The translations under genes were made by a program, and so were the position numbers. From IMG/VR virus record IMGVR_UViG_3300033171_000001, positions 21,260-85,259 of that record: a DNA stretch of 64,000 bases, one strand, 5' to 3'. Within the stretch, counting starts at the first letter, position 1. Every line of letters begins with the position of its first letter. The notes under the pieces were generated by a model. It saw only the letters and a list, made by a program, of their open reading frames with translations. It was not told the origin of the DNA and made no database searches. This stretch comes from a virus (Duplodnaviria; Caudoviricetes). Of the stretch, positions 13,910 to 40,314 are shown piece by piece.

Positions 13910-14593
13910 ATGGCTATTACCATTCTTGATGTAAATACCTACGGTGACACCCCTCAAATTAATCATGGTGTGCAGTACGACCAGCCACACCTCTATACTG
14001 ATGGGTTCCCGAATGATGCCACTATGTTTGTGTCCCTCAAAATGAAGGCCGGTTTCGGTTATATCGAAGCCGGTACTGTCGTTGCCGAGGATGCTAATGG
14101 GGAATTTGTTCCCTACGTTCCTACTACCTACACTGATAACGTAGCCGTTTCTCCGCTGACTGCTAATGCGGTTTACACTGAGGACACCGTTACTGTTTCT
14201 GAGGCTGAGTCCGGTAAATTTGCAAAGGGTGATCTTCTTATCCTTGCCAATGACGATCCTCTCTATTTTGAAGGCGGCGCAATCACTGACATTACTGTTA
14301 CTGCTGGTGTTGCTACCATTACCTTCACTAATGCTATTGACTCCGCTGAGTACACCACTGCCAAGAACGCCCATGTCTACGTGAAGTCCGGTGCTTCTGG
14401 CAAGTTCTCTACTGCGGTTGCTATTCTTGACAAGCCCGTTGATACTGGTGTTGGTTCTTCTGCTAAGGGCGCACAGGCTTCTGCCATTATTGCCAACGCT
14501 GTTATCTACGCTGCCCCCCTGTTTAATCTTGATGCCGCTGCTCTTGCTTCTCTCGGTGTAGTGAAGTTCGGCAACCGTGCATATATTAAGTAA
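13910..14593 (+). CDS. Head decoration/stabilisation protein
   Basis: Ala/Thr-rich, IEAGTVVA motif, between protease and capsid as for lambda gpD. Confidence 0.6.
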   Translation: MAITILDVNTYGDTPQINHGVQYDQPHLYTDGFPNDATMFVSLKMKAGFGYIEAGTVVAEDANGEFVPYVPTTYTDNVAVSPLTANAVYTEDTVTVSEAESGKFAKGDLLILANDDPLYFEGGAITDITVTAGVATITFTNAIDSAEYTTAKNAHVYVKSGASGKFSTAVAILDKPVDTGVGSSAKGAQASAIIANAVIYAAPLFNLDAAALASLGVVKFGNRAYIK

Positions 14594-14604
14594 AGGAGTC
14601 TACT

Positions 14605-15858
14605 ATGCCTAAAGGTAATGTAATTCCAGAGCTGCATCTTAGCACTCTGAACAAGCTCATTGAGAAGGCGCAAACCCCGCCCTCTATGGTGCTTTCCAAT
14701 AAGTTCCCTGTGTCCAACGCTCTTTCTGATACCATTGAGTGGGAAAGCCGCTATGGTTCCGCTGGCATGATTCCTTTCGTTGCCCGTGGTTCCCGTGGAC
14801 CTTCCTTCGGTGATGATGGTGTTGGCAAGCACTCCATGAAACCCGCTTACTTCGCTCAAAGCAAGTTCTTTGGCGAAGAGTTTCTTAACAACCTCCGCGA
14901 ACCCGGAACTGCACAGGCTAAACGCTCTGGTCAGGCTGAGATTGCGCGGGCCTCTCAGCGTATGCTTTATGGCGTGCGGAAACGGCGCGAGTTCATGTTT
15001 GCCAAGATGCTTTTTGATGGCAGTATGGACTACCACATTAAGGCTACTTCCAAGGCTCCTGAGTTTGCTTCCGTGTCTTGGGGTATACCGACCTCTCATC
15101 AGGTAACTCTCGGTGCTACTGCTCGTTGGTATGGGAGCAGCAGTGAAATAGCTGATCGTGATGTTTTTGGTGATGTTTTCGACGCTAAAAATACAATGCA
15201 GGATTCTCTTGAAATGGAGACTATGGGACTAGAGGCGTATATGAATAGCCGCCTTCTCCAGTCGCTGATTAAGGATTCCGGTATTCGCGATCTTGCGCAG
15301 ACGCAGAATATCTCCGAGGCACAACTGGTGAACAACGCCCCCGGCGCACTTGCTCAGATTCTCGGCTTCGGTTCTGTTAATGTGTATGATGCGGCTTATC
15401 CCGTGTCTTCTCCTCTTGCACAGTCCTACACTTCCGGAACTACTATTTATGTAGTTGACCCGTCCGACTTTGTTGTTGGCGGTGACGTTTGGATTAAGAA
15501 CAGCGTGGACGGCGCAGCCGGTCCTCGTTCCAAGATCACTGCGGTTAACCATGAAACCGGGGCCATCACCCTTTCCGCCGCTCTCACTGGTGCTACTGGT
15601 GTCGCCTTTAAGTCTCAGCTGATGATGCGGAAGTTCTATCTGGACAGCAACAAGATTGTCTTTATGGTTCCCAAGGTTGATGGTCAGCCTGTTGCGGAGA
15701 TGATGCAGGCTCCTCATGGTATTCCTTCTACTTATGGTATACGTATGCGTAGTTTTATTAAGGAAGCCCCTGATGGAGTGGAGTTGTATACGGAAGATTT
15801 ATGTCTTCCTGTGCTGTACTATCCTGCTTCAGTGTACCAGCTTACGGTCGGCCTCTAA
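14605..15858 (+). CDS. Major capsid protein (lambda gpE-like, with an insertion)
   Basis: 417 aa, high-expression codon usage, gpE-like segments (RREFMFAKML, LPVLY). Confidence 0.8.
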   Translation: MPKGNVIPELHLSTLNKLIEKAQTPPSMVLSNKFPVSNALSDTIEWESRYGSAGMIPFVARGSRGPSFGDDGVGKHSMKPAYFAQSKFFGEEFLNNLREPGTAQAKRSGQAEIARASQRMLYGVRKRREFMFAKMLFDGSMDYHIKATSKAPEFASVSWGIPTSHQVTLGATARWYGSSSEIADRDVFGDVFDAKNTMQDSLEMETMGLEAYMNSRLLQSLIKDSGIRDLAQTQNISEAQLVNNAPGALAQILGFGSVNVYDAAYPVSSPLAQSYTSGTTIYVVDPSDFVVGGDVWIKNSVDGAAGPRSKITAVNHETGAITLSAALTGATGVAFKSQLMMRKFYLDSNKIVFMVPKVDGQPVAEMMQAPHGIPSTYGIRMRSFIKEAPDGVELYTEDLCLPVLYYPASVYQLTVGL

Positions 15859-15875
15859 GAGTAATTGAATAACGG

Positions 15876-15905
15876 AGGGAGGGGATTGTGATATATCCCC
15901 TCCCT
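15876..15905 (+). terminator. GC-rich hairpin without a U-tract after the capsid gene
   Basis: AGGGAGGGGAT / ATCCCCTCCCT 11-bp stem, 8-nt loop. Confidence 0.65.
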
Positions 15906-15927
15906 GCTTAAAATAAAAGGAAGCACA

Positions 15928-16272
15928 ATGAAAATTCGAGTAAAAACTACATTGTCCCTACCCACTGGGATTTTTGCTAAAGATGCAATCATAGAAGGGA
16001 AGAAGGATGAGATTGATGAATTTTTGCTTAAGGAAATTGAGATGAAATCAGGAACAGTGGAGGTGCTTGAGGATGATGAAGAAGTTGAAGCCCGTCCTGT
16101 TCTAGATAATAATGACCGTGGTAATAAAGATTCGGATGCTAAGGAAGATGTAACTACGAATACTCCTAATCTTATTGAAGAAGTAGTTGAAGTAAAAGAA
16201 GAAGTAAAAGAAGACCCCGTTCCAACAAAGAAGCCCGCTGCCAAAAAGAAGACTATTCATAAAAAGAGATAA
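15928..16272 (+). CDS. Acidic/Lys-rich hypothetical head-region protein
   Basis: ORF with SD right after the capsid gene. Confidence 0.6.
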   Translation: MKIRVKTTLSLPTGIFAKDAIIEGKKDEIDEFLLKEIEMKSGTVEVLEDDEEVEARPVLDNNDRGNKDSDAKEDVTTNTPNLIEEVVEVKEEVKEDPVPTKKPAAKKKTIHKKR

Positions 16273-26425: not shown

Positions 26426-26858
26426 AGGTAAACACAAACTCGTTGAATACGTGTCCAAAGCGATGAGAACTCCTTTTGTTGATAGAGGAAGGGAATTGGG
26501 AAAGGGTTTTGATTGTTGGGGGCTTGTCCATTCAATTTCTAATGAAGTGTTTGGAAATGCTATACCTGATTTCACAATTGGTTCTGAAGATAAGAATAGA
26601 ATATATATGCAGTTTCTTGAACGGACCAAAGAAGAGTTTTACAGAATAGAAGAGTCCCGAATAAGAGAGGGAGATTTGGTTGCGATAAACATGATACTCT
26701 CTGCCCCGAATTTAGTACAACACTTTGGTATATTTATAAACAAGAACACATTCATTCACACCCTTAAAAAAGCCGGACCTCAACTAACAAAGATAACTGA
26801 CATTTCCTACAAAAATAGAATAAGGGGATACTACAGGTGGAACGGAAACAAAATCTAG
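26418..26858 (+). CDS. NlpC/P60 tail tip peptidase (gpK-like)
   Basis: GFDCWGLV and QHFGIF..FIH; TTG start after GAGGAGG. Confidence 0.8.
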   Translation: MYKGKHKLVEYVSKAMRTPFVDRGRELGKGFDCWGLVHSISNEVFGNAIPDFTIGSEDKNRIYMQFLERTKEEFYRIEESRIREGDLVAINMILSAPNLVQHFGIFINKNTFIHTLKKAGPQLTKITDISYKNRIRGYYRWNGNKI

Positions 26859-29800
26859 ATACAGTTAAAGATAGTTCAAGTGCAAGAAACAAAGTCAAAG
26901 TTACTTGCATTGAGAATATATTTGATCCCCACAATAGCCAAAAGATAAAGGAGTTTGAACCAGGAAAGTCTATTGGTGAATTGGTTTGGAATTTCAATCC
27001 TGTTCTGCCTTCAGAAATGGAAATTGTTGTTTCTGTTGATGGTGTTGTTTTAGAATCAGATTGTGATGTAAAAACAGTTGTGCCAAAGAAGGGTTCATCT
27101 GTTGTATTTTCTGTTGTGCCTAAAGGCGGCGGTGGTGGAGGAAAGAACCCTCTAGCGATGGTTGCTATGCTTGCCGTTAGTATTATTGCCCCACAATTTG
27201 CTCCTGCTTGGGGCGCTACCTTCAGCACGCTTTATAGCACTATGGGGGTAGGTCTTCCGGCGGCATATACATTAGCTAATGTGATTACGGCTGCCGCGCC
27301 GATGATGCTTACCGCAGTAGGAGGTTTGCTAGTTAATTCTATATTTGGTGGCGCATCTTTACCTGATGCGGGTGGCCCCTCAATGGAAAATATATCCTCC
27401 ACACCAACTTACGGATGGGAACGCGATCCCAACCCACAAGAACAAGGTATAGTTGTTCCTGTATTATACGGTAGACATAGGGTAACCCCGCCTATTATTA
27501 ACTCCTTCATTACAAACAAAGATAATAATCAAATTTATAATGCTCTTTATTGTGTAGCCGATCATCCTGTTGATTTTATCGGCAACGAATATATCAATGA
27601 TAATCCTATTTATAATTACAATGAAGTAACTGTTTCAAAACGGTATGGTGGATTAAATCAAGGAATCATTCCTGCCTTTTCAGATGTTATATCAGATAAG
27701 GCCGTTGGATTTAAATTAACTACTGATTGGTCGCAAACTGAAACTTCTGGAAATGCTGTAGAGGGACTAGGTGTTGGTATTGTTATCCCTGGATTATACT
27801 ACGCCAATAATAGGGGAGGGCTTGATGCGCAAACAGTAACTTTAAACATCCAGTATAGGAAAAAAGATACCGTTGAATGGTTTTCCTTTAAAGAACCAAG
27901 GGACACTTATACTGAACGGATATTGAACAAAGCAAGATGGTCGGCTGGATATTACTACGAAGATAAGTGGGTTGAATTAGAGGCGGGGAGTACCGATGTT
28001 GATGAGCATGTAGAGGGGGAAAGGTATACTTCCGAGATAGGAATTAGTTATTGGCGGTATATCTCATATGTAAAAATAGTAAAGGGTAAACTAACCTCCG
28101 AATCACAACTAAAAGTTTATATAAAAACTTCTGCTATTACGGACGCATTGACTATAACCGGGGCTACCCAAGAAGAAATACGTAGAAATTTCGTCGTATA
28201 TAATATTCCTGCTGGACAATACGAAGTTCGGGCTAGGCTTGCGGAGGAGTTGGAAACAGGGACGCGGTATAGAAACGATACGTATTTTTCAACCATACAA
28301 GAAATAATCTATGATGACTTCACCTATCCTGGTACTTCATTATTTGGTTTAGAAGCCCTTGCTACAGATCAGCTTCAAGGCTCCGCTCCCACTGTTACCC
28401 TAGAAGTTGAGCGTACTTATGTTGATGTTTGGACCGGAAGTGAATATGAACAAAAGCCCGCAAATAACCCTGCGTGGGCTTGTTATGATATTCTCCATAA
28501 TCCTATTTACGGAGCGGGAGAACCGGCCTCTAGATTTATATTAGAGGATTTTGAGGAATGGGCCGATTATTGCGAAGAACAAGGATATTTTGTTAATATT
28601 TATATGGATGCAGCATCTAATACTCGTAGTATTCTTGATACTATTTCTTTGCTTGGAAACGGTGCTGTAGTTCACAAGGGGGCTAAGTATGGCATAATTA
28701 TTGATAAGGCCGAGCCTATTGCGGTTCAGCATTTCATGTACACCAAGGGGAATATGATCGAGAACACGTATTCCAACTCTTTTATTGACACAACTGAGAG
28801 AGCCAATGCTATTGAAGTTACTTATTTTGATAAAAATCTACAATATTCTAGGCAGATAATTGAGATTTATCAAGATGGTTACGACACGGAACAAACTACC
28901 ATCAATAAGACCAGCGTAACGCTTCTTGGTTGTACTGATAGAAACCAGGCAATCATGTTTGGTAAGCAATCTCTTCTTAGAAATAGATACTTAACGCAAA
29001 CTATTTCTTTTGAAGCCGGAGTTGATTCTATAGCTTGTTTTCCTGGTCAGGTTATTGAGGTCTCACATGATGTTCCGCAGTGGGGACTTTCTTCAGGAAG
29101 GCTATTAGGTAGTGAAACCAATACTGCTGTTCTCCCTGAAGAAGTAACTATGATTCCCGGTGAGTCTTACGCTATTCAGGTAAAGAAAAACGTAGATGAC
29201 ACAGTAGAGACAAAAGAAGTAATTCCGGTGAGTGTTGAGACTACTACGGATACTTTAAACTTAGTATCTGCGTGGGATGTACAACCGGAAAAGAATGATC
29301 TGTACGCCTTTGGTAAACTACATAATATAACAAAAAAATTCAGGGTTCTGTCTATAACCAGAGCCAACGATACTTTACAAAGAAAGATAACCGCTATCGA
29401 ATATATTCCAGAAATTTATAGCGGAGCTTTAGAACACCTTGATGAGATTATATTAGGGGAATCCAGTTTTGTAAATGATCTTCAAGCAAGAGAAGCATGG
29501 GTGTTTGCTAATGATGGAACAGGTAAGTCGGTAATTGATATAACGTGGGCAGGCAAGTCTTTCTCTTGGAATGTGTTTTTAAAGAAAAACACTACTCCCT
29601 GGGAAGTTGTTGGTACTTCTAACAAACCGTCCTTTAGAATTGATAGATCGTTTGTTGTAGGGGAAACATACCAAATATCTGTTAGTCCGTATAATTCTCC
29701 TGATTTAGATAAAACAAAAAGCATAACTATATTGGGAAAGGACGCCCCCCCTTCTAACGTATCTAATTTCAATACGGCAATAAAAGGTGTGCAGTTTATA

Positions 29801-30796
29801 CTAACATGGGATCACATTCCAGACATAGACTTATTAGATTATACAATTGTTGAAGGCATAGATTATAATAGAGGAAACATAATTGCATCTGGTATAACTG
29901 AAAATGAATTTAGATGGTCTCCTTCTGTATCTGGTACATATACCTTTTGGATTAAAGCACGGGATAGAACCTTTAACGAAAGTCTGTCGGCAACATCTAC
30001 GACTGGAACTCTTGATTTGGGAGATTCTTTAAATGTTATTGTTCAAAGGGAAGAAATACCGGATAACGTAGCAACGGCAGACTTATACAATCTTTGGTAT
30101 GACTCTGTAAATGAAGTTGTTTCATGGGTTCCTTGTTTAACTTTTGATGAACTATCGTCGTTGACGTTTGAAGATGAACCAATAGTTAGTTATCTTGCAT
30201 TTGATTTTAATAATGGAACTTACACAACAGATAGCATAGATTTAGGAGTAGTTAATCCTTTTACGCTCAGAATTAGAGTTGAAAAAGATGCTATTCTGAT
30301 TGACCCCTCGTTTGATGATTTTATTTACGGACGAACTTTTAGAACATTTCCATTGGATACGTTTGCGAATGTATCCTCACTTGCGAAATATAAAGTGTGG
30401 TATAGATACTCGGATGACAATAGCGTTTATTCAGATTGGATTGAATATACAAATATAGTTAATCTAAATACGCGGTACATACAAGTAAAAGCAGAGACAG
30501 ATATTAGTATCAAATCAACAAACTTTGATTTTACGTCGATACAAACAATACTGGATGTTGACGATAAGATTAAAAAAGTGTATAATCAGACAATATCCAG
30601 TACCGGGACAGAGTTTTTATTAAGTTCTATTCCTATTACTATTTTAAATTCATACAATGTAGGTGTTACGGTCTTAGGCAGCGGAGTTGCTTCTCATACG
30701 GTAGATATTCAATCAGATAGATTTACGGTATATATTTACGATGCTGCTGGTAATGGAATAGAAAGAACGGTAAATTTAGAAATATCAGGTTTTTAA
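26837..30796 (+). CDS. Central tail fibre / tip attachment protein (gpI-gpJ-like fusion)
   Basis: N-terminal gpI-like PKGGGGG plus hydrophobic segment, VPVLYG, NPAWACYD, FEAG..PGQVIEV, Fn3 region PPSNV. Confidence 0.85.
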   Translation: MERKQNLDTVKDSSSARNKVKVTCIENIFDPHNSQKIKEFEPGKSIGELVWNFNPVLPSEMEIVVSVDGVVLESDCDVKTVVPKKGSSVVFSVVPKGGGGGGKNPLAMVAMLAVSIIAPQFAPAWGATFSTLYSTMGVGLPAAYTLANVITAAAPMMLTAVGGLLVNSIFGGASLPDAGGPSMENISSTPTYGWERDPNPQEQGIVVPVLYGRHRVTPPIINSFITNKDNNQIYNALYCVADHPVDFIGNEYINDNPIYNYNEVTVSKRYGGLNQGIIPAFSDVISDKAVGFKLTTDWSQTETSGNAVEGLGVGIVIPGLYYANNRGGLDAQTVTLNIQYRKKDTVEWFSFKEPRDTYTERILNKARWSAGYYYEDKWVELEAGSTDVDEHVEGERYTSEIGISYWRYISYVKIVKGKLTSESQLKVYIKTSAITDALTITGATQEEIRRNFVVYNIPAGQYEVRARLAEELETGTRYRNDTYFSTIQEIIYDDFTYPGTSLFGLEALATDQLQGSAPTVTLEVERTYVDVWTGSEYEQKPANNPAWACYDILHNPIYGAGEPASRFILEDFEEWADYCEEQGYFVNIYMDAASNTRSILDTISLLGNGAVVHKGAKYGIIIDKAEPIAVQHFMYTKGNMIENTYSNSFIDTTERANAIEVTYFDKNLQYSRQIIEIYQDGYDTEQTTINKTSVTLLGCTDRNQAIMFGKQSLLRNRYLTQTISFEAGVDSIACFPGQVIEVSHDVPQWGLSSGRLLGSETNTAVLPEEVTMIPGESYAIQVKKNVDDTVETKEVIPVSVETTTDTLNLVSAWDVQPEKNDLYAFGKLHNITKKFRVLSITRANDTLQRKITAIEYIPEIYSGALEHLDEIILGESSFVNDLQAREAWVFANDGTGKSVIDITWAGKSFSWNVFLKKNTTPWEVVGTSNKPSFRIDRSFVVGETYQISVSPYNSPDLDKTKSITILGKDAPPSNVSNFNTAIKGVQFILTWDHIPDIDLLDYTIVEGIDYNRGNIIASGITENEFRWSPSVSGTYTFWIKARDRTFNESLSATSTTGTLDLGDSLNVIVQREEIPDNVATADLYNLWYDSVNEVVSWVPCLTFDELSSLTFEDEPIVSYLAFDFNNGTYTTDSIDLGVVNPFTLRIRVEKDAILIDPSFDDFIYGRTFRTFPLDTFANVSSLAKYKVWYRYSDDNSVYSDWIEYTNIVNLNTRYIQVKAETDISIKSTNFDFTSIQTILDVDDKIKKVYNQTISSTGTEFLLSSIPITILNSYNVGVTVLGSGVASHTVDIQSDRFTVYIYDAAGNGIERTVNLEISGF

Positions 30797-32408: not shown

Positions 32409-32711
32409 GTGTCTAATAAAGTATTAAATAAAGTAATAGAAACATTATCCAAAATGTTTAAAGACGATTTAGGTAAACTATCGCAGATGCGTATTTTAAG
32501 CGCGTTTGCGATAGTGGTTCCTATCTTAGTCTGGACCGTTTATGTATTTGTAAATGGGTGGCAAGATTTTAACGAATCCTTTGCATTCCTTATTTTAGGT
32601 GCTTTAGGTAGTAAGGCCGCACAAAAATGGGCAGAAAGTAAGAATAGTAGTACGAAATCCAATACCGAAGTTCCCCCTGAACTTAATGCCCCATCTGATA
32701 AAAAGGAATAA
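32409..32711 (+). CDS. Holin
   Basis: Two hydrophobic segments, KLSQMR..S motif, charged tail; first gene of the lysis cassette. Confidence 0.6.
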   Translation: MSNKVLNKVIETLSKMFKDDLGKLSQMRILSAFAIVVPILVWTVYVFVNGWQDFNESFAFLILGALGSKAAQKWAESKNSSTKSNTEVPPELNAPSDKKE

Positions 32712-32716
32712 TATTT

Positions 32717-33136
32717 ATGTTTATTTTTTCAGCGTTCCTTTCATTTTTTGGGGGCAAGAAGCAAGGTGTAATTGTTATTCTACTAGGGATTGTTATTGCT
32801 TCCCTAGGCGTTCTCTATATGTGGGAAAAGACTTCTCATAGTAATACGAAAGTAGAACTTGCTAACAAAGTATCAGAACTATCTACTATAAAAAATATGA
32901 ATAAACAACTAGAACAGGATCAGGAAACAAAACAACTTGTTATTGATGGACTACAAAACCAAGTTGTTTCATATAAAAAAGACTTTGAAGAATATAGAAA
33001 GCAATATGATAAAATGCTTGAGATTTGCGAGAATACAAAAGAGATAGATAAAGAAGATTCTAAACTGAAAGTATTAGATGAGAAGTCAAATGAAGAATAT
33101 GTTAAAGCAATCAATTCTGTTCTTGGTTTTAACTAG
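32717..33136 (+). CDS. i-spanin (Rz-like)
   Basis: N-terminal TM helix followed by a periplasmic coiled coil. Confidence 0.7.
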   Translation: MFIFSAFLSFFGGKKQGVIVILLGIVIASLGVLYMWEKTSHSNTKVELANKVSELSTIKNMNKQLEQDQETKQLVIDGLQNQVVSYKKDFEEYRKQYDKMLEICENTKEIDKEDSKLKVLDEKSNEEYVKAINSVLGFN

Positions 33137-33407
33137 CCTACTCTTTATTAATGGGTGTTGGCCTAAAATAGTAGAACACACTATTACAGTAACTAGAGTT
33201 CCGGAACGAGTTGAGCCGCCCACTGATCCCAAGTATATCGAGTTGCCAGAAGATTCTCATTTAGGTTCAAAGAAATCTGCAATGATTATATGGAAGAATT
33301 TTCTTGAAGCGGAGAGGGCAAGAAAAGAAGCAAAAGCCGCCTTCTTTGCATATGATTCTCAAGTTAAAAAATTGATAGAAAAGGAAAATCATAACGATGA
33401 AAACTAA
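33099..33407 (+). CDS. o-spanin (Rz1-like lipoprotein)
   Basis: Signal peptide with lipobox-like LLFINGC, Pro-rich mature part, overlaps the i-spanin end. Confidence 0.7.
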   Translation: MLKQSILFLVLTSLLFINGCWPKIVEHTITVTRVPERVEPPTDPKYIELPEDSHLGSKKSAMIIWKNFLEAERARKEAKAAFFAYDSQVKKLIEKENHNDEN

Positions 33408-33825
33408 ACATTTCAATATAAAAGAATTAGTTAATCCGAATATTTATAAAAGATATGGGAACTCCTCGTGGAAATTCCTCAATCCTCTTATTTTGAACGT
33501 TATTGACACACTTAGGGAAGGTATGGGTTCTCCGATTATTATCAATAATTGGCAATGGGGCGGCAATTATCAGGATAGTGGTATGCGAGAAGTAGATTCT
33601 TCCATAGGAGCATTATATTCTATGCACAAGTTTGGTTGTGCGATGGATTTAAAATTCCCCGATTCCTCTGTTGATGTAGTTTACGATTACATTCTTGATA
33701 ATGAAGAATATTGGTATAGTATTGGTGTTAGGCGTTTGGAAAATATCAAACATACACCTACTTGGTTGCATATAGATTGCGCTAATACTCATATAGAAAA
33801 CAAAATCCACATATTCAATGTTTAA
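33397..33825 (+). CDS. Endolysin, peptidase M15-like
   Basis: R.......SMHKFGCAMD and WLHID Zn-ligand motifs. Confidence 0.85.
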   Translation: MKTKHFNIKELVNPNIYKRYGNSSWKFLNPLILNVIDTLREGMGSPIIINNWQWGGNYQDSGMREVDSSIGALYSMHKFGCAMDLKFPDSSVDVVYDYILDNEEYWYSIGVRRLENIKHTPTWLHIDCANTHIENKIHIFNV

Positions 33826-33850: not shown

Positions 33851-34042
33851 ATGGACCCTTTTGATATGTTAAAGGATAGTTTTGATAAACTATCTGAAAA
33901 GGTTTATACGTTGGTTGAAGATATTTCGGGAATAAAAGCGCAGCAAAAAATAATGTGGGCAGTGCTGATGCTTTTTATATCTGGGTCCGTTGGAACCTTT
34001 TTCTTCATCATTCATACGTTGATAAAGACTCACATGGGGTAG
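33851..34042 (+). CDS. Small coiled-coil plus TM protein (possible second holin or antiholin)
   Basis: N-terminal coiled coil and a C-terminal hydrophobic helix. Confidence 0.5.
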   Translation: MDPFDMLKDSFDKLSEKVYTLVEDISGIKAQQKIMWAVLMLFISGSVGTFFFIIHTLIKTHMG

Positions 34043-34047
34043 TTTAT

Positions 34048-34743
34048 ATGTTCGGCATATTCATTGACACAAAAAATAATTTGAAAAAGACCGCTGTTGA
34101 AATTGAAGAGGTAAGGCGTAATTTTGATCTTGCATTTAGTGAAGCAAAAAAACAGCGAGATGAACTTATAGCAACACAGAGTAGATTAGAGCAGGTCAAT
34201 GAAGAACTACTTCATGTAAATGAGATTCTTGCTTCAAATAACAAACTTATCGCAGACATGACACACGCTGCCGGTGGGTTAATTTGTAGAAAGGATAGTG
34301 AAGGAAGGTTTCTATTTGTAAATGAGTATCAATGTGTTCATTTCTTTCGTATGCCTAAAACCTGTATGCCAGATATTTTAGGCAAGACGGATATAGATAT
34401 AATAAATGAATATATAGAGACTACGGGCAAACAACACTCCTTTGGAGATATATGTATGTCTTCGGATGAGCATTGTAAAAAACAAAAGAAAAGATGCTTG
34501 TATGTTGAATTTGGAAACATAGATGGACAGCTTGTAATTCTTAAAATGATAAAGACCCCAATATTTAGGCCAGACGGACAAGACGATGGAGTTGTTTGTT
34601 TTGGTTGGGATATATCTGCTTTGTGCAACGGACTCATGGATGAATTGAACAAAGGAATATCTGAGGGAACGGTTGAGATTATTGATAAGTATGTGTATTG
34701 GATTAAAGATGAACATACTTGCAATCTACCTATTATAGTATAA
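34048..34743 (+). CDS. Coiled-coil plus PAS/PAC domain protein, no output domain
   Basis: GLICRKDSEGRFLFVN...ILGKTD..I...KTPIFRPDG..DGVVCFGWDIS is a PAS_4/PAC pattern; 9 Cys. Confidence 0.8.
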   Translation: MFGIFIDTKNNLKKTAVEIEEVRRNFDLAFSEAKKQRDELIATQSRLEQVNEELLHVNEILASNNKLIADMTHAAGGLICRKDSEGRFLFVNEYQCVHFFRMPKTCMPDILGKTDIDIINEYIETTGKQHSFGDICMSSDEHCKKQKKRCLYVEFGNIDGQLVILKMIKTPIFRPDGQDDGVVCFGWDISALCNGLMDELNKGISEGTVEIIDKYVYWIKDEHTCNLPIIV

Positions 34744-34884: not shown

Positions 34885-35217
34885 ATGTCTAATTTTACTG
34901 TATATAGAGACACAGATGGTACCCTGACCTTTGAGGTTAGAAATACTGCTGGTTCTTTGATTGATTTATCTACGGCCACCGTAAAGATGGTAATTGGAAC
35001 TACTGCATATGCGTTTGTGGCAGTAAAGGACGGTGCGGGGCAAGATGGGACCGGAGATACTAATGCTTCTGTTATTTTTACTAACGACGATGCTATTTGG
35101 GGTACGTTGACAGGAGACACCTATACATACCAATTAAATGTTACCGATGTTGCTTCTAAGGTTACTATCCCGGTAGAAGGGCGACTAACCATCAAGAAGC
35201 AGATACCGCAATCCTAA
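34885..35217 (+). CDS. Ig-like / BppU-N-like virion accessory protein
   Basis: YRDTDGTL.FEV..IDLSTATV...G.YTYQL.V..T...G.L.I pattern. Confidence 0.5.
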   Translation: MSNFTVYRDTDGTLTFEVRNTAGSLIDLSTATVKMVIGTTAYAFVAVKDGAGQDGTGDTNASVIFTNDDAIWGTLTGDTYTYQLNVTDVASKVTIPVEGRLTIKKQIPQS

Positions 35218-35231
35218 TTATTGAACAATAA

Positions 35232-35259
35232 AAAGCCCCTCTCAAAAGAAAGGGGCTTT
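35232..35259. terminator. Bidirectional rho-independent terminator
   Basis: AAAGCCCCT/AGGGGCTTT stem flanked by A and T tracts at the junction of the converging blocks. Confidence 0.85.
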
Positions 35260-36080: not shown

Positions 36081-36662
36081 TTACTTTTTCCATTTATTAT
36101 ACTCTACATACCAACTATTTACATCAAGCAATGACTCCTTATCGCACAATTTTGGATTTTTGTCAAGGAATTTCTTCAGAAATCCACAAGTCTTCTCTTT
36201 GCAATTCCTATGTTCAATACAGTTAGGAACCATTCTGAAGGCTAGATCATAATCCACCCGTTGCATTTGAATCTTTAACTGCTCGATAACTTCAGTTGTT
36301 TCTTTTGACGCCTTCCTACACAACCGTTTCCTTGCTACGTTTATTAGTGCTTCCGCATTAGCAATGAAGTCCATATCTACAGGAGTGTTTCTATCTGCAT
36401 TTTCCCCTCCTCTATCTTCTCTGTTGGACTTCACGAAAGGAACAATAGTGACATGCCGTACTAGATGAGTTGCAACAAATGTAGGAATGTTAGTCATGGA
36501 CACATAGAATATCTGCGTTCTCATTGGGGAGTGCATACATTGATAAATCTTGTCCAATGAGATGTTTGAGTCTTTGTTGATGGTTGTGGAACAGGCTCTT
36601 TTTACCAACTCCGGGGAAGTTAGCTTTTCAACAGATATTGTGAAGGTTCTATTCACTTTCAT
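36081..36662 (-). CDS. thyX: FAD-dependent thymidylate synthase-like protein
   Basis: HSPMR, VATHLVRH....SNREDR, ANAEALINVARKRLC..AS.ET, VPNC. Confidence 0.75.
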   Translation of the reverse strand: MKVNRTFTISVEKLTSPELVKRACSTTINKDSNISLDKIYQCMHSPMRTQIFYVSMTNIPTFVATHLVRHVTIVPFVKSNREDRGGENADRNTPVDMDFIANAEALINVARKRLCRKASKETTEVIEQLKIQMQRVDYDLAFRMVPNCIEHRNCKEKTCGFLKKFLDKNPKLCDKESLLDVNSWYVEYNKWKK

Positions 36663-37260: not shown

Positions 37261-40200
37261 TTACATTTCACATTTATCACCCGTACAATTAAATTCCCTA
37301 CTACCTTCTGTTTTATCTTCATTTTCAAAAACACTTAGTTGTAGAAAATCCATTACAGGTAGATTTTTACTCAATTCAATAAACTCTTCTTCTGTACATT
37401 CCGTATAAGGGGCGAGTGGATAAACTCCCCCATCATAAGGAAGAAAACTAATACCACTAACATAATTCCAATGTTCATACACCCAAGAACCAACCTTGAG
37501 CCATTCATTTTCTTTTACATAAACAGTAATAGAGGGTTTATGTTCACACCAATATTTCTGAAGCATTAACCAGTATTCCAATTGTTCCAGAGCGTCTACA
37601 TCTTGACGCATAACCGCACTTTCCGGTGATTTTATTGGAAATGGAAATACTGCTGTGGAACACCCCTCCCTAGTCTGCCCAACCTCGGGTTCCCATTTCA
37701 TACCAATGGAGTTGAGGTACTTAAATACAGGATCACCAGTGGATACTCGCACTCTCCGAACATAGTACGGACTAAATCGCGGGTGTAGTCCGCTTGCAGA
37801 ATCAACTAATTGCGATACTGTTCCGCTGGGCTTGGTACAGGTAATTGCTGCTGGCATATTGATATGAAGGGCTTTAGACCATTCCTCTGCGGTTTCAATA
37901 GCAGTTTCCTTCATCTCTGTCAACCATGCTTTGGCTTTTTTAGACACTTTTCCAAGGATCGGATGATCCCGTAGTCCAGTTAAACTAACACCGAGTAGGC
38001 GTTCATCTTCTGTATTGTTTTTCCAAGATCGGGAAAGGAAACCAAAATCAGTAAGAGTGGATTGTAAACAACCCAATACCGTTGCGTATCTTACTTTTTG
38101 CCTAAGAGTTTGTTTAGTATCTTCTGGACGAATAACTACTTCTGTTAGATTGCAAAAAGAATTGGGACGAAGAATAATCTCAGCACAGGGGTTTACCCCC
38201 CAGGGGTATCCAGTTTCCCTTCGTCCGGTTTGAGAAACGATAAATTCCATAGACTCTCTATTAATAATACCCCGCTCACCACTTCCACTACGAGCTAATA
38301 CCAACCAATCTTCCATGAACTGAGTAGCATCCGGTTTTTCAGTGTAAACAATGGAGTTATTAGCAAGCATACGTTGTGGGTTAGTATTCCAAAATTCCCC
38401 GTCCTTGGCATGTGCCATTCTGTCATCTGAACGATTTGAAAGAGAAATACAGGCTGAATTATGTACAATATATCCGTTTGCATTGAATGCGTTAATTTCG
38501 TCAACTTCAATATCATAGGTGTCTACATATCGTCCATCTTCGATAGATACTACCATATCAGGCATAAGCGAGGTATTCTTTATGAAACCCCTATCAATTG
38601 CAGTGTCCATTGTAATGAAACCGTCTCGTTTCCATCCAGTAGGGTATCCACACCACGCAGAAGGAATTTTGTAATCAAATGGACCCCCTGATACTGTGAT
38701 ACAATCTGCTTTTCCACTTACACTAAACGGTTTAATATGTTCGATCCACTTTCTCTTGTTTGTCATTCCCGTAACAAAAATTGAATACGCGTCAGAGTAT
38801 CCTTCTCGTTTAATAGTGTCTACGCGACTTCCGATTCCTAATGATGTTAATGCCAATACTGTATCATTTTTTAGTTGATTGTATATCGTATTAACCTGTT
38901 CACACACCGAATCTGCCCTGCCTCTCCCATCTGCATCAAACAAGCCCGCTAAGAAGGCTGATCGAACGGGTTTAGTCGCATTTAATATATATTGGGGTAT
39001 ATATAATTCTGAACTATTTTTCAAATTATGTGACATCCATTGCGATATAGATACGGAGTTCAATCTCAATCGTAGGCAATCCCCATGTCCTTGACTTACC
39101 TTACTATCAATACCAAAATATTCATAAGCAATATTTTTACATTTAGTAAGGACTTCTTTTTGTAGGGTGTGTTGGGTTATTTCTATACCTTTCGGGGATA
39201 TATGTCCATTTCCTACAATTACACCAAACAAATACGCCACATCTTCATTAATATATGCAGGAAATGTCAGTTGCTTTGAATTAAAGTGATTAGAATTAGT
39301 AAACTCCGGTAGGGGGATTAATTCGGAACCCTCATACCCATTAGTATCCCATACTAACATATCCCCTACACAAACATCCTTAGCCTGTTTGTAGGTAATA
39401 TCTATTGTATTTTTTTCGAAAACCGCAACCCTATGATTAAGGGTACACTCCAGTTCACTAAATCGGGTTTTAAACAACAACGTTTTTTGTTTGCCGGAAA
39501 AAACCTTACCCTTAATTGGATATGTCTTACCTGCATACAATACCTTATCAGTATCTTCAAGGCTGTGCATACTTTTAATACCATTATTTGTCATTATAGG
39601 CGTGTCAAATGGTAAACACCTACGAACACCCCCTACAACAACAATAGCAGCCACCTTACACATAATATCGTGACACTCAATCGAAGATAGTTTTCTACCT
39701 TGAGCGTTTTTAAAAAGCTGCGTTGTGAATTTAATTAGATCATCTAAAGGCTCTGGTCCACTGGCTCTTCCACCAAATGTTTTAAGAATAGAACCCTTGG
39801 GACGAATTTTAGATAGATCGTATTTAGGAATCTCGCCTTTATATAAATGCCGCAAATACCGGTAGAATCCGTCTGCCCACCCTTTTTTTGAATCGGAAAA
39901 CTCAACCACATCTACTACTTCTTTTAACTGAGGCACTTCCGGTAATTTGTTAACCTCTTGTCTTTCAACAGAAAAACCAACGCCTGTCCCGTTCATTAAA
40001 ATATATAGACATTCTGCAAATGCTTTTATGTTATTAACTGCTAAATAGGAACAGTTATATCCTGCAATATTTTCCCTGTCCAGTGCGGGTCCAGCCGCCC
40101 ATAATGCCCGCATAGAAGGCATTACGTCTAAATTAATAATCGAAGTAATAGCAGAGTTAAATTCTGCTTCTTTCTCCGATGGTACTCTGGAAATAAAAAA

Positions 40201-40314
40201 GTCTTTATACCTATTAACAGTTTCTTTCCATGTCTCTCTGCATTTTTCTTTCTCTTTCCATCGACTATAGGTTCTAGTATAAATAAATTCTTGGTAACTG
40301 GTTGGAAAATCCAT
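37261..40314 (-). CDS. nrdJ: Class II (B12-dependent) ribonucleotide reductase, RTPR type, with an intein
   Basis: PSMRALW, YNCSY, GTGVGFSV, GGVRR/SA, NPCAEI..CNLTE, TCTKPSGTVS, terminal CTGDKCE. Confidence 0.92.
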   Translation of the reverse strand: MDFPTSYQEFIYTRTYSRWKEKEKCRETWKETVNRYKDFFISRVPSEKEAEFNSAITSIINLDVMPSMRALWAAGPALDRENIAGYNCSYLAVNNIKAFAECLYILMNGTGVGFSVERQEVNKLPEVPQLKEVVDVVEFSDSKKGWADGFYRYLRHLYKGEIPKYDLSKIRPKGSILKTFGGRASGPEPLDDLIKFTTQLFKNAQGRKLSSIECHDIMCKVAAIVVVGGVRRCLPFDTPIMTNNGIKSMHSLEDTDKVLYAGKTYPIKGKVFSGKQKTLLFKTRFSELECTLNHRVAVFEKNTIDITYKQAKDVCVGDMLVWDTNGYEGSELIPLPEFTNSNHFNSKQLTFPAYINEDVAYLFGVIVGNGHISPKGIEITQHTLQKEVLTKCKNIAYEYFGIDSKVSQGHGDCLRLRLNSVSISQWMSHNLKNSSELYIPQYILNATKPVRSAFLAGLFDADGRGRADSVCEQVNTIYNQLKNDTVLALTSLGIGSRVDTIKREGYSDAYSIFVTGMTNKRKWIEHIKPFSVSGKADCITVSGGPFDYKIPSAWCGYPTGWKRDGFITMDTAIDRGFIKNTSLMPDMVVSIEDGRYVDTYDIEVDEINAFNANGYIVHNSACISLSNRSDDRMAHAKDGEFWNTNPQRMLANNSIVYTEKPDATQFMEDWLVLARSGSGERGIINRESMEFIVSQTGRRETGYPWGVNPCAEIILRPNSFCNLTEVVIRPEDTKQTLRQKVRYATVLGCLQSTLTDFGFLSRSWKNNTEDERLLGVSLTGLRDHPILGKVSKKAKAWLTEMKETAIETAEEWSKALHINMPAAITCTKPSGTVSQLVDSASGLHPRFSPYYVRRVRVSTGDPVFKYLNSIGMKWEPEVGQTREGCSTAVFPFPIKSPESAVMRQDVDALEQLEYWLMLQKYWCEHKPSITVYVKENEWLKVGSWVYEHWNYVSGISFLPYDGGVYPLAPYTECTEEEFIELSKNLPVMDFLQLSVFENEDKTEGSREFNCTGDKCEM
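38458..39618 (-). mobile_element. Intein with LAGLIDADG homing endonuclease (387 aa)
   Basis: Starts CLPFDT after GGVRR, ends YIVHN before Ser; AYLFGVIVGNG and AFLAGLFDADG motifs; YDIEV block F. Confidence 0.93.

What the first reader, a model, noticed from the sequence alone, without database searches (positions are those of the whole stretch)
33851..34743. Stand-alone Cys-rich PAS sensor encoded in the lysis cassette
Seen: holin, i-spanin, o-spanin and endolysin are followed with 5-25 nt spacing by a small coiled-coil/TM protein and a 231-aa protein made of an N-terminal coiled coil plus one PAS/PAC domain with 9 Cys and several His, and no kinase, cyclase or DNA-binding output. Established: PAS domains sense redox, O2, light or small ligands through heme, flavin or Fe-S (for example NreB binds an O2-labile 4Fe-4S cluster) and signal through coiled coils. 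Inference: a two-gene environmental switch in which the sensor binds the small TM protein or holin to tune lysis timing to host redox/energy state. Alternatively it is a decoy that poisons host PAS-kinase dimers.
Basis: partly seen in the sequence, partly recalled or inferred. Interest (0 to 1): 0.8.

Follow-up and report, generated by a model that had tools for sequence, protein, structure and literature searches.

The report
Membrane-tethered PAS sensor pair in phage
An uncultured phage carries, at the end of its host-bursting genes, a conserved two-gene unit (a tiny membrane protein plus a coiled-coil PAS sensor protein with invariant cysteines) that probably lets the phage couple a late membrane event, most likely lysis, to a chemical or redox signal inside the cell; nothing like it has been studied experimentally.

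Summary
After a holin-like gene, an overlapping spanin-like pair and an M15 endolysin come a 63-aa tail-anchored membrane protein (33851-34042) and a 231-aa protein (34048-34743) with a roughly 75-residue heptad coiled coil, one PAS domain, a 40-aa C-terminal extension and no output domain. The PAS fold is confirmed by AlphaFold2 and Foldseek; the nearest solved structures are the VqmA quorum-sensing receptors, including phage VP882's.

New here:
- The small membrane gene sits directly upstream of the PAS gene in 16 of 16 stand-alone loci. Other relatives fuse transmembrane segments to the PAS protein instead.
- The coiled coil varies in length in steps of seven residues.
- Only C96, C106, C193 and C225, plus pocket residues H130, C136 and K169, are conserved, not all nine Cys.
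- The pair is next to holin, endolysin or spanin genes in 6 of 12 diverged lineages, with different lysis families. It sits in packaging, head or tail modules in five; one is unclear.

A lysis-timing role is therefore plausible but not obligatory. Binding to the membrane protein, the cofactor and any effect on lysis are untested. The Fe-S, heme and decoy ideas have no specific support. This scan already noted the same family on another genome (e1-3507133), and similar PAS-in-lysis-cassette cases.

The parts
32409..32711 (+). Holin-like 100-aa protein with two hydrophobic segments and a charged C-terminal tail
   Evidence: ORF and sequence. No Pfam or PHROG match. Called from architecture and position; conserved in L007-L009.
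32717..33136 (+). i-spanin-like protein (N-terminal TM plus coiled coil)
   Evidence: Weak Rz-like spanin hits, phrog_214 and phrog_739, E 0.003-0.005. TM at residues 14-38 in the L007/L008 orthologues.
33078..33407 (+). o-spanin-like lipoprotein gene overlapping the end of the i-spanin gene
   Evidence: 59-nt overlap and the lipobox-like LFINGC. phrog_9385 Rz-like spanin, E 0.05.
33397..33825 (+). Endolysin, M15-type peptidase
   Evidence: phrog_894 endolysin, E 2.6e-21. Peptidase_M15_4 below threshold.
33851..34042 (+). Small tail-anchored membrane protein: N-terminal DPFDMLKD motif and helix, one C-terminal TM at about residues 33-58
   Evidence: A homologue lies directly upstream of the PAS gene in 16 of 16 loci. 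No family assignment.
34048..34743 (+). 231-aa coiled-coil PAS protein with no output domain
34048..34275 (+). N-terminal heptad coiled coil (residues 1-76), the likely output and docking end
   Evidence: Modelled helices 2-47 and 57-74. Continuous a/d heptad pattern. The K34-to-K82 spacing is 48, 41, 34 or 27 residues in 20 of 24 relatives.
34276..34617 (+). PAS core (residues 77-190) with conserved pocket residues K82, D83, C96, H130, C136, D140, E154, K169
   Evidence: pLDDT about 90. Foldseek top hits are the VqmA PAS domains. Conservation. Mapping to the VqmA DPO pocket.
34618..34740 (+). C-terminal extension (helix plus beta-hairpin) carrying C193 and the near-invariant C225
   Evidence: Found mostly in the short proteins (44 of 69 against 15 of 63 long ones).
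34885..35217 (+). Downstream 110-aa gene of unknown function (phrog_1084); whether it belongs to the unit is uncertain
   Evidence: phrog_1084, E 2.2e-5. The same family directly follows the PAS gene in L029, E 1e-18.
35232..35259 (.). Bidirectional terminator-like hairpin that closes the + strand late block

Best explanation
The two genes form one self-contained unit that is expressed late.

Proposed mechanism:
1. The 63-aa protein inserts in the inner membrane by its C-terminal helix and leaves a conserved acidic helix (DPFDMLKD...) in the cytoplasm.
2. The 231-aa protein dimerises through a long heptad coiled coil. The N-terminal tip of that coiled coil docks on the small protein, which holds a cytoplasmic PAS domain at a fixed register below the membrane.
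3. The PAS pocket is lined by invariant K82/D83, D140, E154 and K169 and by H130/C136. It binds a small ligand, or reacts through a metal or thiol centre (C96, C106, C193, C225).
4. The change is passed along the coiled coil to the membrane partner.
5. In this phage the partner sits in the holin, spanin and endolysin operon, so the most likely output is the timing of holin triggering, acting like an antiholin or a holin co-factor.

Shown: gene order, the PAS fold, the conserved pairing, the heptad-periodic linker, the conserved residues, the fused-TM relatives and the enrichment next to lysis genes.

Inferred: that the two proteins bind, what is sensed, and that lysis is the output.
For: - PAS fold: core pLDDT about 90. 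Foldseek gives 118 PDB matches at E<=1e-3; all those listed are PAS/LOV domains, headed by phage and Vibrio VqmA. phmmer finds 983 relatives, including PAS sensor kinases. An ESM Atlas viral cluster of 233-aa PAS_4 proteins matches at TM 0.60.
- Pairing: a homologous small protein, with a D-x-F/L-D-x-L motif and a C-terminal hydrophobic helix, lies directly upstream in 16 of 16 stand-alone loci. In 14 of them the two genes overlap or lie at most 14 nt apart, although the PAS proteins are only 23-47% identical between lineages.
- Membrane link: at least 12 of 94 short or mid-length relatives carry N-terminal TM segments fused to the coiled-coil PAS part, and these loci have no separate small partner.
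- Signalling-type coiled coil: the linker differs by 0, 7, 14 or 21 residues in 20 of 24 members.
- Ligand pocket: the profile alignment to VqmA puts family-invariant K169, D140 and E154 on VqmA K101, D71 and D85, and puts C136 on F67. F67 and K101 are essential for DPO binding (bioRxiv 10.1101/2019.12.19.881847).
- Lysis linkage in six lineages below 48% identity:
  - this window and its relatives L001, L002, L007-L009;
  - L005, directly after a holin (PF16083; phrog_785, E 2e-13);
  - L006, after an endolysin (phrog_894) and a holin (phrog_3427, E 8e-31);
  - L011, overlapping a phrog_199 holin-like gene and close to a GH108 gene;
  - L014, after an M15_3 endolysin;
  - L016, before a TM protein, an Rz-like spanin (E 4e-14) and a lysozyme.
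- No terminator separates the pair from the endolysin.
Against: - In 5 of 12 lineages the pair is not next to recognisable lysis genes, and L028 is ambiguous. The five are:
  - L004 and L015, before terminase genes;
  - L012, between portal and MuF genes;
  - L013, between coat and adaptor genes;
  - L029, between a 1238-aa protein and tail fibre genes.
- No family assignment links either protein to known holins or antiholins.
- Homology of the small protein to XhlA/SPP1 gp24.1 failed a profile-profile test, probability 2.4%.
- No cultured phage carries the family, so there is no experimental anchor.
- The window already has a holin-like gene, so the pair is not needed for a minimal lysis system.
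Confidence: 0.4

Rival explanations
1. The pair is a mobile, moron-like accessory cassette for a late membrane function other than lysis. Examples would be superinfection exclusion, control of a host membrane process, or sensing that feeds into assembly. Lysis cassettes are simply a tolerated insertion site.
For: The pair keeps its internal organisation while its surroundings change completely: terminase, portal, capsid, tail and lysis contexts. It is absent from cultured phages, which suits an accessory role. The window has a complete holin, spanin and endolysin set without it.
Against: Six of 12 diverged lineages place it within one or two genes of a holin, endolysin or spanin of different families. 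If about 10% of positions qualify by chance (my assumption), six or more of 12 has a binomial probability near 5e-4. Position before the terminase genes is also where lambdoid phages keep their lysis genes (my own knowledge).
Confidence: 0.3
2. One reading: the PAS domain is an NreB-like Fe-S, or a heme, oxygen or redox sensor.
For: Four cysteines (C96, C106, C193, C225) are present together in 27 of 33 aligned rows, five of which repeat another row, so 23 of 28 distinct phage-type members. C96 and C225 are nearly invariant, and H130 and C136 line the pocket. A four-Cys set could hold an Fe-S cluster.
Against: There is no CxxC pair as in NreB (recalled from memory) and no CxxCH motif. The four Cys are 10, 87 and 32 residues apart. 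C193 and C225 lie in a C-terminal extension found mostly in the short proteins, which looks more like a structural Zn staple. C80, C143, C150 and C184 are not conserved, and two lineages have only 5 Cys. The closest structures (VqmA) bind an organic ligand without a metal.
Confidence: 0.15
3. The small membrane protein is itself a second holin component of the XhlA/SPP1 gp24.1 kind (cytoplasmic coiled coil plus C-terminal TM, lethal only together with the main holin). The PAS protein is its dedicated cytoplasmic inhibitor or activator. This is a sharper version of the best explanation.
For: The architecture is the same as XhlA and gp24.1, which have a C-terminal TM and cooperate with a two-TM holin (PMC6316719; PMC5589764). 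There are weak leads: 5 of 11 partners hit phrog_1193 'hemolysin' (best E 0.001), 2 of 11 hit Pfam XhlA at E 0.013, and an XhlA-named cluster ranks 13th among the nearest ESM Atlas clusters by features.
Against: Profile-profile comparison with an XhlA/gp24.1 alignment gives 2.4% probability. All sequence hits are below the family cut-offs and could reflect coiled-coil and TM composition. XhlA is known from Gram-positive hosts, whereas this phage has spanin-like genes.
Confidence: 0.2
4. The protein is a decoy that forms dead heterodimers with host PAS sensor kinases.
For: It has a PAS domain and a coiled coil without an output domain. Its core shares a sequence signature with PAS domains of long sensor kinases.
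Against: The best cellular matches are only 25-32% identical and are scattered over unrelated phyla. The obligatory membrane partner, the fused-TM variants and the phage-specific Cys-bearing C-terminal extension are not explained by mimicry.
Confidence: 0.05

Closest known systems
VqmA quorum-sensing receptors (Vibrio cholerae VqmA, PDB 6ide/6ugl/6kju; vibriophage VP882 VqmA_Phage, PDB 7dwm)
   Same: They are the best structural matches of the PAS core (Foldseek E 9e-7 to 3.5e-5) and the best, though not significant, PDB sequence-profile match (E 0.07). They share the KD / AN / G-TD / D / KTP / GT motif positions. The Lys that hydrogen-bonds DPO (K101) aligns with invariant K169. VqmA_Phage is a phage-encoded PAS receptor tied to host killing.
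   Different: VqmA has a C-terminal helix-turn-helix DNA-binding domain and no N-terminal coiled coil or membrane partner. Here F67 and F99 are replaced by C136 and M167, identity is only 16-19%, and the protein adds a Cys-bearing C-terminal extension. VqmA_Phage acts on transcription of the lysis-lysogeny switch, not inside the lysis operon.
Antiholin and lysis-inhibition systems (lambda S107, T4 RI/RIII with holin T, P1 LydB)
   Same: They are small accessory proteins encoded with or near the lysis genes that change when the holin triggers. T4 RIII is cytoplasmic and acts on the holin's cytoplasmic end (my own knowledge).
   Different: None contains a PAS domain or any recognised ligand-binding sensor fold. 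No sequence or fold similarity was found here. Function here is inferred from gene context only.
XhlA (PBSX) / SPP1 gp24.1 tail-anchored holin partners
   Same: The small partner has the same architecture: a cytoplasmic helical N-terminus, a single C-terminal TM helix and a place in the lysis operon. XhlA and gp24.1 act together with a two-TM holin (PMC6316719, PMC5589764).
   Different: Homology is not supported (hhalign 2.4%; Pfam XhlA E 0.013, below the cut-off). XhlA proteins have no PAS partner.
NreB and other cofactor-bearing cytoplasmic PAS sensors (NifL FAD-PAS, FixL/DosP heme-PAS, WalK Zn-PAS)
   Same: They share the PAS fold (2gj3 NifL, 9cmf DosP and the 9a5d WalK model appear among the Foldseek matches). 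Conserved Cys and His could carry a metal centre.
   Different: All of these are domains of kinases or regulators with an output domain. Their cofactor-binding motifs are not present here.

Membership tests
PAS domain superfamily | Five-stranded antiparallel beta-sheet flanked by the C-alpha to F-alpha helices | tested here: met
   The AF2 model has strands 78-82, 88-91, 150-158, 161-173 and 179-188 and helices 93-99, 107-110, 115-126 and 132-146, at pLDDT about 90. Foldseek gives 118 PDB matches at E<=1e-3; all those listed are PAS/LOV domains.
PAS domain superfamily | Pfam PAS-clan model above its gathering score | tested here: not met
   PAS_4 scores 19.9 bits against a cut-off of 23.1 for this protein. 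Relatives do pass: P0009 carries PF08448, and 85-89% of members of the nearest ESM Atlas clusters carry PAS_4.
VqmA family | C-terminal LuxR-type helix-turn-helix DNA-binding domain | tested here: not met
   Only 40 residues follow the PAS core, modelled as one helix and a beta-hairpin. There is no DNA-binding family hit.
VqmA family | DPO-binding residues F67, F99 and K101 | tested here: not met
   K101 aligns with K169 and is kept, but F67 aligns with C136 and F99 with M167.
NreB-type Fe-S PAS sensor | Four clustered Cys ligands (two CxxC pairs, as I recall for NreB) that bind a 4Fe-4S cluster | tested here: not met
   There is no CxxC in the sequence. The conserved Cys are at 96, 106, 193 and 225. 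Cluster binding itself cannot be tested with these tools.
c-type heme PAS | CxxCH motif | tested here: not met
   The motif is absent.
XhlA (PF10779), for the small partner | Match to the family profile | tested here: not met
   Pfam best E 0.013 in 2 of 11 members. No match in the phage's own record at E<=1. hhalign against an XhlA/gp24.1 alignment gives 2.4% probability.
Holin (for the small partner) | Small membrane protein of the lysis cassette that forms lethal membrane lesions | not testable with these tools
   One C-terminal TM and the position in the lysis operon are seen. Only weak holin-family hits, E 0.03-0.08, in a few members.
Antiholin / lysis regulator | Changes holin triggering time through direct binding | not testable with these tools
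   Only gene context is available.

The most novel reading that the evidence does not exclude
Phages of several unrelated lineages use a dedicated sensor to gate or delay holin triggering according to an intracellular metabolite, metal or redox signal. The sensor is a PAS domain held under the membrane by a heptad-registered coiled coil and a tail-anchored partner. This would be a ligand-controlled lysis clock, a mode of lysis control not described for any studied phage.
Probability: 0.35. Interest if true: 0.8.

Novelty: new variant of a known kind. Interest (0 to 1): 0.6.

Why it matters
Lysis timing sets phage burst size and fitness. The known controls are holin dual starts, antiholins and T4-type lysis inhibition, and none uses a classical ligand-binding sensor domain. 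A PAS sensor wired to a membrane partner in the lysis operon would mean that phages read the host's internal chemical or redox state when deciding when to burst.

The family is common in metagenomic phages: viral ESM Atlas clusters of 159 and 119 members. It is absent from cultured phages, so it is an open and testable problem. The pair is small, 0.9 kb, and could be tested directly in a heterologous lysis assay. The conserved VqmA-like pocket also offers a route to an unknown ligand.

Tried and rejected
- **Complex prediction.** The PAS protein (alignment A2) with the small partner (A3) gave no verdict: ipSAE 0.02-0.03 against a mark of 0.32, and controls were not run. This is no evidence either way.
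- **XhlA homology of the small partner.** The leads were weak PHROG, Pfam and language-model hits. hhalign against SPP1 gp24.1 alone gave 3.3% and against a six-member XhlA alignment gave 2.4%. Homology is rejected; only the shared architecture is kept.
- **Cultured phages.** tblastn of P0001, P0014 and P0162, and megablast of 8 kb of the window, against 50,697 phage records gave no match.
- **Host from prophage relatives.** A genome-contig scan found only cellular PAS domains at 25-32% identity. The host remains unknown.
- **PDB sequence-profile searches.** Only coiled-coil noise for A1. For A2 the best hit was VqmA at E 0.07, which is not significant on its own.
- **Searches with the wide alignments.** A2 was too diverse for the search for related loci. 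A5 and A6 each gave one new locus. Word-index searches with A2 and A3 added little.
- **PHROGs for the PAS family.** No family for any of the 24 members.
- **Literature.** A search for PAS domain, holin, phage and lysis found no relevant paper.
Full report
**Observation**

The window is part of an 85-kb IMG/VR virus record. On the + strand, a GpJ-like tail protein (26837-30796), a tail fibre and a tail-fibre assembly chaperone (PF16778) come first. They are followed by:
- a 100-aa holin-like protein with two hydrophobic segments (32409-32711; no family match);
- an N-terminal-TM, coiled-coil protein with weak Rz-like spanin hits (32717-33136);
- an overlapping lipoprotein-like gene (33078-33407);
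- an M15-type endolysin (33397-33825; phrog_894, E 2.6e-21).

Twenty-five nucleotides later a 63-aa gene starts behind a GGTAGGTG Shine-Dalgarno sequence (33851-34042). Five nucleotides after its stop comes a 231-aa gene (34048-34743). No terminator-like site separates these genes from the endolysin. A bidirectional hairpin at 35232-35259 closes the block. The 231-aa protein has 9 Cys and 6 His.

**Is it a PAS protein?**

Pfam PAS_4 falls just below its cut-off (19.9 against 23.1 bits), so sequence models alone do not settle the question. Three other results do:
- An AlphaFold2 model built on eight homologues gives a canonical PAS core, residues 77-190 at pLDDT about 90, with the expected order of strands and helices.
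- Foldseek returns 118 PDB matches at E<=1e-3. All those listed are PAS/LOV domains.
- An exhaustive phmmer search finds 983 relatives at E<=1e-3. Long ones carry PAS, GAF, HisKA and HATPase domains.

The nearest ESM Atlas clusters are 233- and 234-aa 'PAS fold' proteins, one of them entirely viral with 159 members, at TM 0.60 over residues 49-222. No output domain follows. The last 40 residues form one helix and a beta-hairpin.

**Closest structures and the pocket**

The best structural matches are the PAS domains of phage VP882 VqmA (7dwm) and Vibrio cholerae VqmA (6ide, 6ugl, 6kju), at E 9e-7 to 3.5e-5. A sequence profile of 24 family members also ranks 7dwm first in the PDB. At E 0.07 that is not significant on its own, but the motifs line up: KD, AN, G-TD, D, KTP and GT.

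In that alignment the invariant residues K169, D140 and E154 fall on VqmA K101, D71 and D85, and C136 falls on F67. In VqmA, F67 and K101 are essential for binding the autoinducer DPO, and D71 and D85 were among the binding-site residues chosen for mutagenesis (bioRxiv 10.1101/2019.12.19.881847). The residues that define this family therefore sit in the ligand pocket, and the pocket is chemically different from VqmA's (Cys and Met in place of the two Phe).

Across 157 representatives the signature is W80, K82, D83, N92, C96, G112, D115, H130, G133, C136, D140, E154, G156, K169, P171 and G181. PAS domains inside long sensor kinases share it.

**The cysteines**

Not all nine Cys matter. In 33 aligned phage-type rows, of which five repeat another row (28 distinct):
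- C96 and C225 are each present in 32;
- C106 is present in 31;
- C193 is present in 28;
- all four occur together in 27.

H130 and C136 are each present in 27. C80, C143, C150 and C184 vary, and two lineages have only five Cys. C106, C193 and C225 are largely confined to the short stand-alone proteins, and the C-terminal extension that carries C193 and C225 is found mostly in them.

There is no CxxC pair and no CxxCH. A four-Cys set could hold Zn, stapling the C-terminal extension to the core, or an Fe-S cluster. The sequence cannot tell which, and I could not measure distances in the model.

**The coiled coil**

Residues 5-75 show a continuous a/d heptad pattern. Among 24 diverged members the distance from the conserved N-terminal Lys (K34) to the first PAS Lys (K82) is 48, 41, 34 or 27 residues in 20 cases. 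Length changes in whole heptads keep the register between the N-terminal tip and the PAS core. This is what one expects of a coiled coil that carries a signal, and it points to the N-terminal tip as the output end.

**The partner**

A homologous small gene lies directly upstream of the PAS gene in all 16 stand-alone loci examined: the window, L001-L004, L006-L009, L012-L016, L028 and L029. Two of these genes had not been called by the source annotation.

The small proteins share an N-terminal D-[PA]-[FL]-D-x-L motif, a helical stretch and a C-terminal hydrophobic helix. That helix passes a Kyte-Doolittle threshold of 1.6 in 13 of 16. In 14 of 16 loci the two genes overlap or lie at most 14 nt apart. 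The PAS proteins of the different lineages are only 23-47% identical.

Other relatives have no small partner. They carry one to three N-terminal TM segments fused to the coiled-coil PAS part: P0016, P0019/P0162, P0020 and at least nine more among 94 short or mid-length representatives. Taken together, the PAS domain is meant to hang below the membrane from its coiled coil.

Direct binding of the two proteins is inferred, not shown. The one complex-prediction job gave no verdict.

**What the partner is**

It has no significant family match. The leads to XhlA-type 'hemolysin' or holin partners are weak:
- phrog_1193 in 5 of 11 members, best E 0.001;
- Pfam XhlA in 2 of 11, E 0.013;
- one XhlA-named cluster, ranked 13th among the nearest ESM Atlas clusters by features.

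I built an XhlA/SPP1 gp24.1 alignment from annotated Bacillus phages. The profile-profile comparison gave 2.4% probability. Only the architecture is shared. XhlA and gp24.1 have a C-terminal TM helix and kill only together with a two-TM holin (PMC6316719, PMC5589764).

**Linkage to lysis genes**

I looked at 12 lineages, all below 48% PAS identity to each other. Six have the pair, or the fused form, within one or two genes of lysis genes, and the lysis families differ:
- the window type, with an M15/phrog_894 endolysin and spanin-like genes;
- L005, 10 nt after a Phage_holin_3_3/phrog_785 holin;
- L006, after a phrog_894 endolysin and a GTA_holin_3TM/phrog_3427 holin;
- L011, a 287-kb contig, overlapping a phrog_199 holin-like gene with a GH108 gene nearby;
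- L014, after a Peptidase_M15_3 gene;
- L016, before a TM protein, an Rz-like spanin (phrog_8971, E 4e-14) and a Phage_lysozyme gene.

The other six do not:
- L004 and L015 lie before terminase genes;
- L012 lies between portal and MuF genes;
- L013 lies between the coat protein and a head-tail adaptor gene;
- L029 lies between a 1238-aa protein and tail fibre genes;
- L028 lies after a tail fibre gene and before proteins of unknown function, so it is ambiguous.

If about one position in ten of a phage genome qualified by chance (my assumption), six or more of twelve would have a probability near 5e-4. The association is real but not obligatory. All contexts are late-gene regions. The pair behaves like a portable two-gene cassette that prefers lysis operons.

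**Reading**

The best-supported picture is a membrane-tethered PAS sensor whose output is its membrane partner. In this phage the most likely process controlled is holin triggering (confidence about 0.4). The rivals are:
- A late membrane function unrelated to lysis (0.3).
- A sharper version of the main reading, in which the small protein is a second holin component (0.2). It overlaps the main reading.
It has no specific motif support but is not excluded by the four conserved Cys.
- The decoy idea (0.05). It is unsupported: the nearest cellular PAS domains are 25-32% identical and come from unrelated phyla, and mimicry does not explain the membrane partner.

**Novelty**

No cultured phage in the INPHARED collection has a relative. 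A full-text search found no paper linking PAS domains to phage lysis cassettes. The components are known kinds: PAS with a signalling coiled coil, tail-anchored lysis proteins, and antiholin-type regulators. The combination is new.

The scan itself has met this before. Note e1-3507133 describes the same family on another genome and reaches a similar reading. Many other notes describe PAS proteins in phage lysis cassettes. I treated those as leads only.

- the 16 of 16 pairing;
- the heptad-step linker;
- the reduction of nine Cys to a conserved four plus two;
- the mapping onto the VqmA pocket;
- the negative XhlA homology test;
- the finding that half of the lineages are not lysis-linked.

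Noticed in passing
window 37261-40314 (-): A ribonucleotide reductase gene (RNR_Alpha, RNR barrel and B12-dependent insertion domain hits) is interrupted by an intein with a LAGLIDADG/Hom_end homing endonuclease, at about residues 280-620 of the 1017-aa product.
   Followed up: partly
window 34885-35217 (+) and L029 4647-5009: A phrog_1084 protein of unknown function directly follows the PAS gene, both here (E 2.2e-5) and in the unrelated lineage L029 (E 1e-18), where tail fibre genes come next. It may be a third travelling gene or a tail-module remnant.
   Followed up: partly
L007/L008 4789-4986; L009 4781-4993; window 33818 vs 33851: The small membrane gene often has two in-frame starts a few codons apart (MIMDPLD..., MREKRPMDPFD...), which recalls holin/antiholin dual-start motifs. 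In the window the upstream ATG at 33818 has no Shine-Dalgarno sequence.
   Followed up: no
L003 1993-2328: In the L003 relative the endolysin position is held by a 111-aa protein with an HExxH-like motif (HERVH) and no PHROG match. It is followed by two small N-terminal-TM proteins that share a GGDAVSGD-like C-terminal motif. This may be an unusual lysis set.
   Followed up: no
window 14001-16000: A patch of raised G+C: 0.49, against 0.34-0.43 in every other 2-kb bin.
   Followed up: no
window 36081-36662 (-): A 193-aa protein with only a sub-threshold partial match to ThyX (Thy1, 22.7 bits against 24.8) lies next to the RNR gene.
   Followed up: no
L028 4680-5848: Downstream of the PAS gene in L028 lie a phrog_1501 protein with a YkuD-like H..G...GC motif (seen by eye) and a 229-aa protein with an N-terminal TM and a lipobox-like LLMLSAC. 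These may be unrecognised lysis genes.
   Followed up: partly
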